Source of the DNA: a virus
Taxonomy: Duplodnaviria > Heunggongvirae > Uroviricota > Caudoviricetes
Direction: 5' to 3' (one strand)
IMG/VR virus record: IMGVR_UViG_2740892274_000011
Length of the DNA stretch: 4,120 nt
Below the pieces are notes generated by a model. That model saw only the letters and a list, made by a program, of their open reading frames with translations, had not been told where the DNA came from and made no database searches. The translations under genes were made by a program, and so were the position numbers. This document shows positions 1 to 4,120 of the stretch, piece after piece (the stretch's first letter is position 1; every line of letters starts with the position of its first letter).

Positions 1-64
1 GTCACTCTCGTCTGGGGAATATCTCCCCGGCAGCCTTCAGGGAAAAATATCATCAGATGGCTGC

Positions 65-238
65 TTAAAAAAAGAACAAATGGTAGTGTCCGCTATTGCC
101 AGTACACCTCAGGGTATAAGGGGTTATGGCCACCGGACTACCAAACGGCTGCCAGCCCTCTTTCAGTTTATGTGTCAGCTTTTCCGCAAGATCTGACGGC
201 GGCGCCGCCCTGACAACATCATAGTGTTTAAATGCCAT
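65..238 (-). CDS. small conserved prophage protein, 57 aa; resembles the DUF1737-type small proteins found just upstream of lysis genes in lambdoid prophages (family recalled from memory, unverified)
   Basis: ATG at 238-236 (rc) with GGTGGAAAG about 8 nt upstream; stop TAA at 67-65. Product MAFKHYDVVRAAPPSDLAEKLTHKLKEGWQPFGSPVAITPYTL... The tool ORF 65..253 starts 5 codons earlier at an ATG with no Shine-Dalgarno. Confidence 0.5.
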   Translation of the reverse strand: MAFKHYDVVRAAPPSDLAEKLTHKLKEGWQPFGSPVAITPYTLRCTGNSGHYHLFFF

Positions 239-250
239 GGTTCTTTCCAC

Positions 251-265
251 CATCTGAAAAATAAT
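251..265. repeat. direct repeat copy A (catctgaaaaataat), left boundary of the AT-rich insert
   Basis: Matches 847-863 at 15 positions with two 1-nt indels; sits at the junction between the ~50% GC phage backbone and the AT-rich segment. Confidence 0.4.
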
Positions 266-431
266 TCTTTAAAATACCTGACATGTAATACAGAAAAAAC
301 ACAAAACCATACCTTAAATAAAAACCTGATTATCAAGCAGATATGCATGGATAAACTACAAGACGAGATATAAACCACCCTGCATTTAAATAAACAATAA
401 ACAACATCAGAAAAATAATTCTGCTCTATGG

Positions 432-458
432 TTTACATTCAAAAATATCATTTATACT
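432..458 (+). promoter_or_regulatory. candidate sigma70 promoter for the 499-834 ORF
   Basis: -35 TTTACA (432-437) and -10 TATACT (453-458); spacer is 15 bp, which is shorter than optimal; A-rich upstream region. Confidence 0.3.
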
Positions 459-498
459 TTTCAGAACATCACCAGCAAGGCATAAACAAGGAAACTAA

Positions 499-834
499 AT
501 GAAGTGGATTGTGATTGATACAGTTATCCAGCCATCATGCGGAATATCTTTTTCAGTCATATGGAGTAAAATAAAATTAATAATCTGGTATCAATCGGAT
601 GCTTTCTTACCTCCTGAAAGTATATTTACACTGACTCACACAGGCATCATGCTCAATAACAAAGTGCTACCTGTAACCATTTACAACGTAGTACCATTCA
701 ATAAAACATTCTGGAATTCAATCAAAAATAGCCAGGAATGCCCTACAAATACAGATAACGTATTGAATGAATGCTTTAATAACCGTTGCACTCTGCAAAT
801 ATGTCCTTATGGACTAAAACAACAAAGTCCATAA
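499..834 (+). CDS. hypothetical protein, 111 aa, encoded opposite to the phage late operon inside an AT-rich insert
   Basis: ATG at 499 preceded by AAGGAAA (488-494) with a 6-nt spacer; candidate promoter upstream; 12-bp perfect hairpin overlaps the stop codon TAA at 832-834; no competing ORF on the other strand; AT-rich codon usage with 6 AUA codons. No recognisable family. Confidence 0.4.
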
Positions 835-837
835 GGA
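804..837 (+). terminator. perfect 12-bp stem-loop (tccttatggact / 10-nt loop / agtccataagga) overlapping the stop of the 499-834 ORF; possible weak or bidirectional terminator
   Basis: Perfect inverted repeat 804-815 / 826-837; followed on the + strand by GTTTACT, which is only a partial U-tract. Confidence 0.3.
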
Positions 838-846
838 GTTTACTCA

Positions 847-863
847 CATCTGACAAAATCAAT
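847..863. repeat. direct repeat copy B (catctgacaaaatcaat), right boundary of the AT-rich insert
   Basis: Near-identical to 251-265; overlaps the U-tract of the minus-strand terminator. Confidence 0.4.
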
Positions 864-890
864 ATAAACAGCCCCTCCGGAGAGGGGCTG
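851..890 (-). terminator. rho-independent terminator of the minus-strand cargo unit
   Basis: 9-bp GC-rich stem (869-877 cagcccctc / 882-890 gaggggctg, loop cgga), followed on the minus strand by UUUAUAUUGAUUUUGUC. Confidence 0.7.
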
Positions 891-965
891 GAGAGTGGCG
901 CTATGTGCCATTGCATGGTGCCGGGTGCCTCCCGGTGAATTCAGTACCAGCACCTGAATCCGCGA

Positions 966-1201
966 TTATCCCATATACCTACTCGCTGATTGCCCCTCCG
1001 CACAGGGGGATTCACCATGCCAGTTTCTTTTAACAAACTCCCCGCAAACCAGACAACAGTCAACCGCCTGAATTGTGAAGTATTTAAAAATTTCTCCCGC
1101 TAACTGATACCCGGCTAACAGTCTGGCGTTTTCTTTTTCAGCAACGGGAAAGCAACAACCACCACACCCGCCACCAGCACACCGTCAGCCAGCACTGACA
1201 T
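966..1201 (-). pseudogene. candidate ~79-aa membrane-anchored ORF interrupted by a frameshift in an A-run (or read by -1 frameshifting); the N-terminal 28-codon ORF (1115-1201) encodes MSVLADGVLVAGVVVVAFPLLKKKTPDC
   Basis: ATG at 1201-1199. A 72-codon open frame with no canonical start (1184-969, stop 968-966) lies in the -1 frame and overlaps the 28-codon ORF. Adding one A to the A5 run at 1133-1138 fuses them into MSVLADGVLVAGVVVVAFPLLKKENARLLAGYQLAGEIFKYFTIQAVDCCLVCGEFVKRNWHGESPCAEGQSASRYMG. Weak RBS. Confidence 0.25.
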
Positions 1202-1281
1202 TATCCGGCTGCTGCAATGCCATTCACAAAAACAGTAAGCAATCACTTTTTACCGTAACAGGTGATAATCCAGATATGTAT

Positions 1282-1608
1282 CTACCCCAGATGAGTAATC
1301 CGAAGTTCATCCATACCACAGGTCCTGGCTATTCTGTTGTACTCCTGAACAAGAGCAAATAATTCTGAATTAGCAACCATGAACTCATCGCAAACCCTCT
1401 GTATAGCATCACTATTCAGAATAATAACGTCTCTTCCCGAAAGACGATCAGGAGTACAGAACAAAACTGTCAAACGGCTGAAGGCCTTTGCTCGTGCTGC
1501 ATTGACTATATCAATACGCTGCCTAAGGATGAAACACCCCGACGCCTCATCAATATTCACTCTACCCACACCATATGAATGATAAATATTTAATGCTGAA
1601 AAAACCAT
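1282..1608 (-). CDS. hypothetical protein, 108 aa from the ATG (117 aa from the upstream TTG at 1635); unrecognised cargo gene in the stx-equivalent position
   Basis: Open frame bounded by TAA just upstream of 1635 and TAG at 1284-1282; lies directly downstream of the phage tRNA genes on the late transcript; 6 of 11 Arg codons are AGA/AGG and 3 of 10 Ile codons are AUA; weak RBS at every candidate start. Confidence 0.45.
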   Translation of the reverse strand: MVFSALNIYHSYGVGRVNIDEASGCFILRQRIDIVNAARAKAFSRLTVLFCTPDRLSGRDVIILNSDAIQRVCDEFMVANSELFALVQEYNRIARTCGMDELRITHLG

Positions 1609-1745
1609 TAGACCGTATAACAAACACTCAATCAATACTTAACAGAACTTTTATTTTTGACAAACATAAAATATTTTCAACAATATCCTGAGCCAGGTAT
1701 ATTTCAGTATAAGGCTCTGCCGGAAGGAATCTGGAAGAATGAATA

Positions 1746-1822
1746 TGGCGCGCTGTACTGGATTCGAACCAGTGACCGATTGCTTAGAAGGCAATTGCTC
1801 TGTCCGGCTGAGCTAACAACGC
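1746..1822 (-). tRNA. tRNA-Arg (anticodon UCU), phage-encoded (argN/argO type of Stx and lambdoid phages)
   Basis: rc reads GCGTTGTTAGCTCAGCCGGACAGAGCAATTGCCTTCTAAGCAATCGGTCACTGGTTCGAATCCAGTACAGCGCGCCA; 7-bp acceptor stem, D-stem GCTC/GAGC, anticodon stem ATTGC/GCAAT with loop CTTCTAA, T-arm ACTGG-TTCGAAT-CCAGT, encoded CCA. Confidence 0.9.
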
Positions 1823-1836
1823 TGAATACCGATAAT

Positions 1837-1916
1837 GGACCGCCATCGGGGACCCGCCCCCGCACCAACAACCCTGTTATCGTGTCGTCTGCTCTTCCTG
1901 ATAAGCTAATGGCGGT
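1837..1916 (-). ncRNA. degenerate tRNA-like element (possible tRNA pseudogene in the middle slot of the cluster)
   Basis: 8-9 bp acceptor-like stem (ACCGCCAT...ATGGCGGT) followed by CCA; D-arm-like TAGCTTATCAGGAAGAGCA; GC hairpin CGGGG-GCGGGT-CCCCG in the T-arm position but no TTCRA T-loop and no anticodon stem that pairs. Confidence 0.25.
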
Positions 1917-1922
1917 TTGTGA

Positions 1923-1998
1923 TGGTGGCCCTTGCTGGATTTGAACCAGCGACCTGGCGATTATGAGTCGCTCGCTCTCACCACTGAGCTAAAGGGCC
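1923..1998 (-). tRNA. tRNA-Ile2-like (anticodon CAU; ileX/ileY/ileZ type, formally also compatible with tRNA-Met)
   Basis: rc reads GGCCCTTTAGCTCAGTGGTGAGAGCGAGCGACTCATAATCGCCAGGTCGCTGGTTCAAATCCAGCAAGGGCCACCA; canonical cloverleaf; anticodon loop CTCATAA; closely resembles E. coli ileX as recalled. Confidence 0.9.
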
Positions 1999-2034
1999 GG
2001 GAGCAGAATAATAACGGTCCGTAATTAATTCCGC

Positions 2035-2061
2035 AATAAAAAACCCGCTCGGCGGCGGGTT
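2035..2061 (-). terminator. rho-independent terminator, probable tR' (late-operon terminator that Q overrides)
   Basis: On the minus strand: stem CCCGC / loop CGCCGA / GCGGG, extendable to 7 bp with flanking A-U pairs, followed by UUUUUUAUU; lies 40 bp downstream of the Q stop and upstream of the tRNAs. Confidence 0.7.
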
Positions 2062-3211: not shown

Positions 3212-3633
3212 NNNNNNNNNNNNNNNNNNNNNNNNNNNNNNNNNNNNNNNNNNNNNNNNNNNNNNNNNNNNNNNNNNNNNNNNNNNNNNNNNNNNNNNNN
3301 NNNNNNNNNNNNNNNNNNNNNNNNNNNNNNNNNNNNNNNNNNNNNNNNNNNNNNNNNNNNNNNNNNNNNNNNNNNNNNNNNNNNNNNNNNNNNNNNNNNN
3401 NNNNNNNNNNNNNNNNNNNNNNNNNNNNNNNNNNNNNNNNNNNNNNNNNNNNNNNNNNNNNNNNNNNNNNNNNNNNNNNNNNNNNNNNNNNNNNNNNNNN
3501 NNNNNNNNNNNNNNNNNNNNNNNNNNNNNNNNNNNNNNNNNNNNNNNNNNNNNNNNNNNNNNNNNNNNNNNNNNNNNNNNNNNNNNNNNNNNNNNNNNNN
3601 NNNNNNNNNNNNNNNNNNNNNNNNNNNNNNNNN
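3212..3633. other. assembly gap (422 N)
   Basis: Run of N in the sequence. Confidence 1.
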
Positions 3634-3733
3634 TACGGATAGCGTCTTTTGTTATGCCCGTTTTTTCGAGTTGTTCAGCATGACGCAGCATTTCCTGCGC
3701 GTGTTTACGCAATTGTTCAGGGGTAAAAGTCAT
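3634..3733 (-). CDS. hypothetical nin-region protein, N-terminal 33 codons only (3' end in the gap)
   Basis: ATG at 3733-3731; MTFTPEQLRKHAQEMLRHAEQLEKTGITKDAIR...; same strand as and upstream of rusA; the tool ORF 3188..3748 is an artefact spanning the N run. Confidence 0.4.
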
Positions 3734-3868
3734 TGTCTGGTTGTTCAAAAGAAACGCTCCATCTTACTGCTGTCAGTTCGTTTATTACTGTATCTGCGCG
3801 GATTGCCGGGCTTCATGGGAGTGGAAAGCACCCGTGCACTTTCCTGGTCCACAGGCAGAAAATGTCCG

Positions 3869-4018
3869 TAGACTGGCCCCCTGAATCTCCAGACAACCAG
3901 TATCACTTAAATAAGTGATAGTCTTAATACTAGTTTTTAGACTAGTCATTGGAGTACAGATGATTGATGTCTTAGGGCCGGAGAAACGCAGACGGCGTAC
4001 CACACAGGAAAAGATCGC
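3869..4018 (+). mobile_element. IS2 left-end remnant (IRL, promoter/operator region and the first 20 codons of orfA), truncated at 4018/4019
   Basis: TAGACTGGCCCCCTGAATCTCCAGACAACCAgTATCACTTAAATAAGTGATAGTCTTAATACTAGTTTTTAGACTAGTCATTGGAGtACAGATGATTGATGTCTTAGGGCCGGAG... matches the IS2 left terminus as recalled, with 2 mismatches; similarity stops after AAGATCGC. Confidence 0.85.
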
Positions 4019-4076
4019 AATTGTGTCAACGCCACGATGTTTGACCGTTATTTGCCATTTTCATGCCCGCTAAATA
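3960..4076 (+). pseudogene. insC: truncated IS2 orfA (InsC); authentic for the first 20 codons ([20 protein letters not shown]), then reads into unrelated sequence
   Basis: Start ATG at 3960 as in IS2; diverges from IS2 orfA (…IAIVQQSF…) at codon 21; stop at 4074-4076. Confidence 0.6.
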
Positions 4077-4120
4077 CTTTCGTTACTGATGCTGTCCGCT
4101 TTCCACCATTTCATCATCAC

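What the first reader, a model, noticed from the sequence alone, without database searches (positions are those of the whole stretch)
432..837. Self-contained opposite-strand gene inside the late operon
The 111-aa ORF at 499-834 has its own near-consensus promoter elements, a well-spaced AAGGAAA Shine-Dalgarno and a perfect 12-bp hairpin over its stop codon, and it runs against the phage late transcript. That layout is typical of genes expressed from the prophage in the lysogen, such as lysogenic-conversion, superinfection-exclusion or defence genes. The protein ([43 protein letters not shown]…[31 protein letters not shown]) has no recognisable family and a Cys-containing C-terminus.
Basis: partly seen in the sequence, partly recalled or inferred. 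Interest (0 to 1): 0.5.

Follow-up and report, generated by a model that had tools for sequence, protein, structure and literature searches.

The report
iraL, a known prophage RpoS stabiliser
The opposite-strand gene is real, but it is iraL, an already characterised prophage gene whose small protein blocks the adaptor RssB so that the stress sigma factor RpoS escapes degradation during normal growth.

Summary
The described features are all in the sequence: a 111-aa ORF (499-834), AAGGAAA 4 nt before the ATG, TTTACA/TATACT hexamers (spacer 15 nt, not 17), and a perfect 12-bp hairpin over the stop codon.

The claim of "no recognisable family" is wrong. The protein passes NCBIfam's IraM model (162 bits, cut-off 121) and matches the solved IraM chain 8TWD (E 6e-31). 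It is 110/111 identical to IraL of E. coli CFT073, and the exact sequence is the Shigella allele. The published 5' RACE end of iraL mRNA matches window 466-497 at 31 of 32 bases.

IraL has been shown experimentally to bind RssB and to stabilise RpoS in log phase in CFT073 and Shigella sonnei (PMC4045071). About 27% of complete E. coli genomes carry it.

Defence or exclusion has no support.

- The frame is under purifying selection (dN/dS 0.10-0.15).
- The hairpin decays in relatives.

Small extras:
- a convergent STnc100 sRNA always lies next to it;
- four C-terminal cysteines are invariant;
- there is a PhoP-box-like repeat upstream.

Verdict: already known, low interest.

The parts
432..437 (+). 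-35 hexamer TTTACA of the iraL promoter
   Evidence: Sequence. Identical in CFT073. [quoted passage not shown]
453..458 (+). -10 hexamer TATACT, 15-nt spacer from the -35
   Evidence: The position is kept as TATGAT or TATAAT in the 75% and 74% paralogues.
466..466 (+). Transcription start inferred from the published 5' RACE of CFT073 iraL
   Evidence: The RACE sequence ACATCACCAGCAAGGCATAAACAAGGAAACCA equals window 466-497 with 1 mismatch, at 496.
488..494 (+). Shine-Dalgarno AAGGAAA
   Evidence: Sequence. AAGGA is kept in three of the four relatives shown; P0019 has AAGAG.
499..834 (+). iraL coding sequence (111 aa + stop), RssB anti-adaptor of the IraM family
   Evidence: NCBIfam NF007393, 162 bits against a cut-off of 121. 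PDB 8twd_A E 6.3e-31. 110/111 identical to CFT073 WP_000871291.1. dN/dS 0.10-0.15.
804..837 (+). Perfect 12-bp hairpin, 10-nt loop, over the last codons and the stop. Probably a 3'-end stabiliser or weak terminator of iraL mRNA.
   Evidence: Not conserved in the 88%, 75% and 74% relatives.
860..1049 (-). Neighbour, not part of the gene: convergent STnc100-family prophage sRNA. Its terminator hairpin (869-890 plus a T-run on the - strand) ends 25 nt from the iraL stop.
   Evidence: Rfam RF02076, 132.4 bits against a gathering score of 47. Terminator scan. The same pairing is seen in L003, L004, L006 and L009.
387..403 (-). Candidate only: PhoP-box-like direct repeat TGTTTA-N5-TATTTA, at -79 to -63 from the start site
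   Evidence: One mismatch to (T/G)GTTTA-N5-(T/G)GTTTA (20 of 200 shuffles of the window give a match). Perfect at the same place in L006, 1 mismatch in L003, absent in L009.

Best explanation
The ORF is iraL, the prophage-borne paralogue of iraM. It is transcribed on its own from a sigma-70 promoter (TTTACA-15-TATACT, start at 466), against the direction of the prophage late genes, while the prophage is silent. The 111-aa protein binds the response-regulator adaptor RssB, so RssB cannot hand RpoS (sigma-S) to the ClpXP protease. RpoS therefore accumulates during exponential growth, and the host switches on part of its general stress regulon without prior stress. Shown by experiments in the literature on a 110/111-identical protein and on Shigella sonnei: the start site, the effect on RpoS level and half-life, and the interaction with RssB. 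Shown here: identity with that gene, family membership, purifying selection, and the conserved position in lambdoid late regions. Inferred: that this particular Shigella allele (S74 instead of L74) works the same way; that the 12-bp hairpin stabilises or ends the mRNA; and that Q-antiterminated late transcription would silence the gene during lytic growth.
For: Family: NCBIfam anti-adapter protein IraM, 162 bits against a cut-off of 121. The solved IraM chain 8twd_A matches at E 6.3e-31 over residues 1-78. Homologues carry a precomputed Pfam PF11183 (PmrD) hit. Identity with iraL: window 109-2040 is 98.1% identical to the CFT073 potB prophage, with only 4 differences within 432-837. That protein, WP_000871291.1, lies where the paper places iraL. 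The RACE-mapped 5' end matches 31 of 32 bases. JJ1886 has two copies, as published. Identity to K-12 IraM is 61%, against the published 58.9%. The exact protein is the Shigella allele. Function: lower RpoS in CFT073 and S. sonnei iraL deletion mutants, and two-hybrid plus pulldown interaction with RssB. Of 15 IraM residues that contact RssB, 11 are identical and 4 are conservative changes. Coding: dN/dS 0.10-0.15, with 46-55 of 73-100 differences at third codon positions. Context: the same opposite-strand slot between Q/tRNAs and DUF1737/holin in six other loci.
Against: Nothing contradicts it. Caveats follow. The window allele carries L74S next to contact residue 75 and has not been tested separately, although the paper's S. 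sonnei mutant may well carry it. The promoter spacer is 15 nt, which is suboptimal. The AlphaFold model is poor (pLDDT 59.9), so fold agreement is only weakly shown. Here the prophage is an IS-bounded remnant, so 'inside the late operon' is only historically true.
Confidence: 0.95

Rival explanations
1. It is functionally an IraM. The gene would be mainly a PhoP/PhoQ-induced (low Mg2+, acid, osmotic) anti-adaptor, as K-12 iraM and Salmonella rssC are, rather than a constitutive log-phase one. The upstream PhoP-box-like repeat would be the control element.
For: A reverse-oriented TGTTTA-N5-TATTTA lies at 387-403, 63-79 nt upstream of the start site. It is a perfect PhoP box at the same place in the 75% paralogue and has one mismatch in the Stx2c-phage paralogue. 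K-12 iraM is a highly PhoP-responsive gene. The iraL paper did not test PhoP or Mg2+.
Against: The iraL and K-12 iraM upstream regions do not align at all: blastn matches start at the ATG. The motif sits in very AT-rich DNA, and 10% of shuffles of the window give such a match. It is missing in the 88% relative, which keeps the same core promoter. iraL is expressed in LB log phase without stress. Conservation between paralogues may be shared ancestry only.
Confidence: 0.2
2. It is a superinfection-exclusion or anti-phage defence gene of the prophage.
For: Only the layout: an AT-rich, opposite-strand, lysogen-expressed moron in a late region.
Against: No match to any PADLOC defence model. There is clear membership of a family with a different, demonstrated biochemical target, RssB. 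A secondary effect on phage through RpoS cannot be excluded but is not indicated.
Confidence: 0.02
3. The ORF is spurious and the functional unit is an RNA: the hairpin, or an sRNA or antisense transcript.
For: The hairpin is very stable for its composition (z -5.8), and a true sRNA gene lies next door.
Against: The frame is intact and under purifying selection across paralogues down to 53% identity. The hairpin decays in relatives while the ORF, including the 4-residue extension, persists. No Rfam family matches 432-837. The protein's N-terminal domain has been crystallised in the K-12 homologue.
Confidence: 0.01

Closest known systems
IraL (YcgW) of E. coli CFT073 and Shigella sonnei (Hryckowian et al. 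2014, mBio, PMC4045071)
   Same: 110/111 residues. Identical -35 and -10 hexamers, Shine-Dalgarno sequence and hairpin. The same mapped mRNA 5' end (31/32). The same prophage slot between Q/tRNAs/DUF3927 and DUF1737/holin.
   Different: One amino-acid change (L74S, the Shigella allele), one synonymous change, and two 5'-leader or promoter-proximal SNPs (465, 496). Here the prophage is reduced to a remnant flanked by IS600 and IS2/IS21.
IraM of E. coli K-12 (PDB 8TWD; Brugger et al. 2023, PMC10844676)
   Same: Homologous over 107 residues (61% identity). 11 of 15 RssB-contact residues are identical. The same four C-terminal cysteines and the CPYGLK end. The same target, RssB.
   Different: Unrelated promoter region; K-12 iraM is PhoP-induced. 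IraM binds both RssB domains whereas IraL binds only the N-terminal domain in two-hybrid assays. IraL has a 4-residue C-terminal extension (QQSP). K-12 iraM has no neighbouring STnc100 and has its own T-tailed terminator.
IraM-like genes of Stx2 and Stx2c phages (e.g. phage 1717, 2851; annotated 'iraM' in some records)
   Same: 71-75% protein identity. The same opposite-strand placement, here immediately after stx2AB. The same convergent STnc100 sRNA and shared GC hairpin.
   Different: Most are 107 aa and lack the 12-bp hairpin. The 111-aa P0019 variant, also downstream of stx2AB, keeps the 4-residue extension and part of the hairpin. The -10 is TATAAT or TATGAT and the -35 differs. No experimental work on them was found in the library.
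PmrD (PhoP-activated connector that binds phospho-PmrA; Pfam PF11183)
   Same: Brugger et al. report that the IraM N-terminal fold resembles only PmrD. Family members carry a precomputed PF11183 hit. Both are small proteins that bind a response-regulator receiver domain.
   Different: Different target (PmrA, not RssB) and outcome (protects phosphorylation rather than blocking an adaptor). The Pfam copy scanned here gave no PF11183 hit for the window protein at E <= 1.

Membership tests
IraM/IraL/RssC family of RssB anti-adaptors (NCBIfam NF007393) | Full-length match to the curated family model above its cut-off | tested here: met
   162 bits against a cut-off of 121, residues 1-110 on profile positions 1-113 of 114.
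IraM/IraL/RssC family of RssB anti-adaptors (NCBIfam NF007393) | Homology to the crystallised RssB-binding N-terminal domain of IraM | tested here: met
   8twd_A E 6.3e-31 over residues 1-78; 50 of 78 residues identical.
IraM/IraL/RssC family of RssB anti-adaptors (NCBIfam NF007393) | Conservation of the IraM residues that contact RssB (clusters I-III and P66) | tested here: met
   Cluster I 5/5 identical. Cluster II 3/5, with T13S and L75I. Cluster III 2/4, with H63N and I64V. P66 identical.
IraM/IraL/RssC family of RssB anti-adaptors (NCBIfam NF007393) | Beta-barrel plus beta-hairpin plus one alpha-helix fold | tested here: inconclusive
   The AlphaFold2 model has mean pLDDT 59.9. It shows seven strands followed by helix 69-76, which is consistent. 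The Foldseek top hit is 8twd_A at E 7e-6, but TM is only 0.37-0.46.
IraM/IraL/RssC family of RssB anti-adaptors (NCBIfam NF007393) | Binds RssB and stabilises RpoS against ClpXP | not testable with these tools
   Published for the 110/111-identical CFT073 protein and for an S. sonnei iraL deletion mutant.
iraL subtype (as defined by Hryckowian et al.: >=95% nucleotide identity to CFT073 iraL, own conserved promoter) | >=95% identity over the coding region and >=96% over the promoter region | tested here: met
   2 differences in the 336-nt coding sequence and 2 in the 120 nt upstream; the hexamers are identical.
iraL subtype (as defined by Hryckowian et al.: >=95% nucleotide identity to CFT073 iraL, own conserved promoter) | mRNA 5' end as mapped by 5' RACE | tested here: met
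   Sequence match of 31/32 at 466-497. Transcription in the source strain itself was not tested.
iraM proper (K-12 type) | >=95% identity to K-12 iraM and a homologous PhoP-controlled promoter | tested here: not met
   68.8% nucleotide and 61% protein identity. The upstream regions do not align.
Anti-phage defence systems (PADLOC) | Match to any defence-protein model | tested here: not met
   0 families at E <= 0.01.
Intrinsic terminator (for the 804-837 hairpin) | G+C-rich stem, short loop, run of T immediately downstream | tested here: not met
   Not listed by the terminator scan. The loop is 10 nt, 5 of 12 pairs are G-C, and the tail is GTTTACTC.

The most novel reading that the evidence does not exclude
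The prophage-borne IraM-family gene and the convergent STnc100 sRNA would form a conserved two-gene stress-rewiring cassette of lambdoid late regions, occupying the slot next to or in place of stx. Within it, iraL would be additionally PhoP-responsive through the reverse PhoP-box-like repeat at 387-403. The invariant C-terminal Cys4 motif (C81, C92, C97, C102), deleted from the only crystal structure, would bind a metal or form disulfides that tune how the protein engages RssB.
Probability: 0.2. Interest if true: 0.4.

Novelty: already known. Interest (0 to 1): 0.12.

Why it matters
The gene matters biologically. A prophage remnant raises RpoS in growing cells of uropathogenic E. coli and Shigella, which changes stress resistance and possibly niche adaptation. 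That was published in 2014, and the gene is routinely annotated, under the name IraM. The value of this check is mainly corrective: the 'orphan' ORF has a family, a solved homologue and a demonstrated mechanism. Three things may be worth a specialist's glance. First, the strict pairing with a convergent STnc100 sRNA, which no paper read here mentions. Second, the invariant four-cysteine tail, which the structural work removed. Third, a possible PhoP box, which would link iraL to the same signal as iraM and rssC.

Tried and rejected
- **Pfam scan:** it gave no family for the protein, only a sub-threshold Nairovirus NSm hit. NCBIfam, PDB and PHROGs (phrog_4407, unknown function) all recognised the protein.
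- **Generic promoter scan:** it missed the real promoter because of its 15-nt spacer, and listed only weaker sites at 391-419 and 550-577.
- **The 12-bp hairpin as a conserved RNA element:** rejected. It is perfect only in the iraL allele and decays in the 88%, 75% and 74% relatives and in K-12.
- **The GC hairpin 869-890 as the iraL terminator:** rejected in favour of its being the terminator of the - strand STnc100 sRNA. The T-run is on the - strand only.
- **Trans base-pairing of STnc100 with the iraL 5' region:** the duplex energy was no better than shuffles, 56% of which were as good. The first attempt timed out.
- **Structure prediction from a 16-sequence alignment:** low confidence (pLDDT 59.9), and it could not say anything about the cysteine-rich tail.
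- **Supplementary files of the iraL paper** (primer and promoter figures): not held.
- **Defence function:** no PADLOC hit.

Full report
**1. Observation**

AAGGAAA lies at 488-494, four bases before the ATG.

The promoter-like hexamers are TTTACA (432-437) and TATACT (453-458). Each is 5/6 to consensus. They are separated by 15 nt rather than 16-18, which is why the generic scan did not report them.

The inverted repeat 804-815 / 826-837 is a perfect 12-mer with a 10-nt loop, and the stop codon (832-834) is in its right arm. As RNA it folds at -17.5 kcal/mol, z = -5.8. It lacks a T-run and is not terminator-like by the scan's criteria.

The gene is AT-rich, 30-39% GC against about 50% around it. 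Everything else recognisable nearby lies on the - strand:
- a Q antiterminator at 2101-2955 (Pfam Antiterm, E 7e-55);
- tRNA(CAT) and tRNA-Arg(TCT);
- a DUF3927 gene;
- a DUF1737 fragment.

**2. Identity**

The protein is not an orphan.
- NCBIfam's 'anti-adapter protein IraM' model scores 162 bits against a cut-off of 121.
- The solved chain 8TWD_A (IraM residues 1-78 bound to RssB) matches at E 6.3e-31.
- PHROGs has it as phrog_4407.
- Megablast finds the 651-bp stretch at 90% identity or more in 1446 of 5426 complete E. coli genomes, always annotated 'anti-adapter protein IraM'.
- A more sensitive search adds about 3300 genomes with the about 70% identical K-12-type iraM, and a small 74% class.

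The 2014 mBio paper by Hryckowian et al. (PMC4045071) split this family. It separated K-12 iraM from iraL, the CFT073 gene on the potB island, which shares 58.9% protein identity with IraM.

I fetched that CFT073 region. WP_000871291.1 sits at 1343465-1343800 inside the prophage next to potB. Window 109-2040 is 98.1% identical to it. Within 432-837 there are four differences:
- 465, A versus G;
- 496, T versus C;
- 719, giving S74 instead of L74;
- 729, synonymous.

The paper's 5' RACE sequence of iraL mRNA, ACATCACCAGCAAGGCATAAACAAGGAAACCA, is window 466-497 with one mismatch. This places the start 7 nt after TATACT. JJ1886 has two copies, as the paper says. [quoted passage not shown]

The exact window protein is on record as the Shigella (sonnei/flexneri) allele on about 1000 contigs. 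The window's ends fit that origin: an IS600 end at 1 to about 119, and an IS2 left end followed by an IS21 piece at about 3868-4120.

**3. Coding versus RNA**

Against K-12 iraM and the Stx2c-phage paralogue, dN/dS is 0.10-0.15, and 46-55 of 73-100 differences fall at third codon positions. Seventeen family members down to 53% identity keep the frame.

The hairpin is the variable feature. It is perfect only in iraL. It is reduced to a few pairs in the 88% relative (P0016), partly kept in the 75% relative (P0019), and absent in the Stx2c-phage gene and in K-12. The 111-aa relatives P0016 and P0019 keep the four-residue extension (QQSP, QQCP, QHSP) that the right arm encodes; the Stx2c and K-12 genes are 107 aa and lack it. 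The protein is therefore the selected unit.

**4. Mechanism**

From the literature:
- iraL is transcribed in mid-log LB cultures.
- Deleting it lowers RpoS level and stability in CFT073 and lowers RpoS in S. sonnei.
- A plasmid copy with its native promoter was also assayed in K-12.

Brugger et al. (PMC10844676) show that the IraM N-terminal beta-barrel docks on the 4-5-5 face of the RssB receiver, on the helical linker and on the C-terminal domain, which blocks sigma-S engagement. Of the 15 contact residues they name, 11 are identical here. The other four are conservative: T13S, L75I, H63N and I64V.

My AlphaFold model is poor (pLDDT 59.9). It shows the expected strands followed by a helix at 69-76, and it retrieves 8TWD_A as the only significant Foldseek hit.

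Inferred, not shown:
- the S74 allele behaves like L74;
- the hairpin protects or ends the mRNA;
- Q-antiterminated late transcription would run antisense through the gene on induction.

**5. Context**

In every relative inspected, the IraM-family gene lies on the strand opposite to the late genes. On one side are Q, the tRNAs and stx2AB or DUF3927. On the other are DUF1737 or the DUF1737-SASA esterase and the holin. The relatives were E. coli 042, JJ1886, CFT073, an Stx2c prophage and three further contigs. Forty-six sequenced phages carry a copy, 41 of them Stx2-type phages at 71-73% identity.

Defence has no support.

**6. Things beyond the finding**

(a) Rfam places an STnc100-family sRNA at 860-1049 on the - strand, at 132 bits against a gathering score of 47.
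- Its terminator is the GC hairpin 869-890, with a T-run on the - strand.
- The sRNA ends 25 nt from the iraL stop.
- The same convergent pair, with a 10-36 nt gap, occurs beside all four prophage lineages tested, but not beside K-12 iraM.
- The 2026 preprint on Pas/STnc100 sRNAs does not mention iraM or iraL.
- A test for trans pairing between the sRNA and the iraL leader was negative.

(b) C81, C92, C97 and C102 are invariant in all 17 members and in a 36%-identical Salmonella fragment. Yet this tail was removed for crystallography and described as less conserved and flexible.

(c) A reverse PhoP-box-like repeat lies at 387-403.
- It is perfect in one paralogue, one mismatch off in another, and absent in a third.
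- It is weak evidence on its own: 10% of shuffles give such a match.
- It is a cheap hypothesis to test, given that iraM and rssC are PhoP-controlled.

**7. Verdict**

This is a real gene, correctly described and correctly read as a lysogen-expressed moron. It is the already characterised iraL. Novelty: already known. Interest: low.

Noticed in passing
window 860-1049 (-): STnc100-family prophage sRNA (Rfam RF02076, 132 bits) converging on iraL. RefSeq annotates only a pseudo 'hypothetical protein' there. The same convergent iraM-family/STnc100 pair is found in L003, L004, L006 and L009, but not next to K-12 iraM.
   Followed up: partly
window 739-804 (codons for C81, C92, C97, C102): Four cysteines in the C-terminal tail (CP-x9-C-x4-C-x4-CPYG) are invariant in 17 family members and in a 36%-identical Salmonella fragment. 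The tail was truncated in the only crystal structure, so a metal site or disulfides are possible.
   Followed up: partly
window 387-403 (-): PhoP-box-like direct repeat TGTTTA-N5-TATTTA, 63-79 nt upstream of the iraL start. It is a perfect box at the same place in L006, has one mismatch in L003, and is absent in L009. On its own it is compatible with chance in AT-rich DNA.
   Followed up: partly
window 1-119 and 3868-4120: An IS600 end cuts the DUF1737 fragment on the left. On the right, an IS2 left end (about 3868-4024) is itself interrupted and followed by an IS21 istB piece. The iraL locus here is a short IS-bounded prophage remnant, typical of Shigella.
   Followed up: partly
window 1282-1635 (-): This 117-aa ORF matches phrog_2873 (unknown function, E 4e-70, from residue 10). 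It is not annotated in the corresponding 500-bp gap of CFT073, 042 or JJ1886, so it may be a missed phage gene.
   Followed up: no
window 1923-1998 (-) and 1746-1822 (-): ARAGORN calls the CAT-anticodon tRNA 'Met', but RefSeq annotates it as tRNA-Ile in relatives. Together with tRNA-Arg(TCT), it forms the usual rare-codon tRNA pair downstream of Q in Stx-type lambdoid phages.
   Followed up: no
window 3212-3634: A run of 423 N masks part of the gene upstream of the RusA/Q region. Nothing can be said about it.
   Followed up: no
L002 3429-3596 (K-12): K-12 iraM lies just beyond the icd pseudogene fragment that follows mcrA, so it appears to be adjacent to e14 rather than inside it, although the literature says it is 'on e14'.
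   Followed up: no
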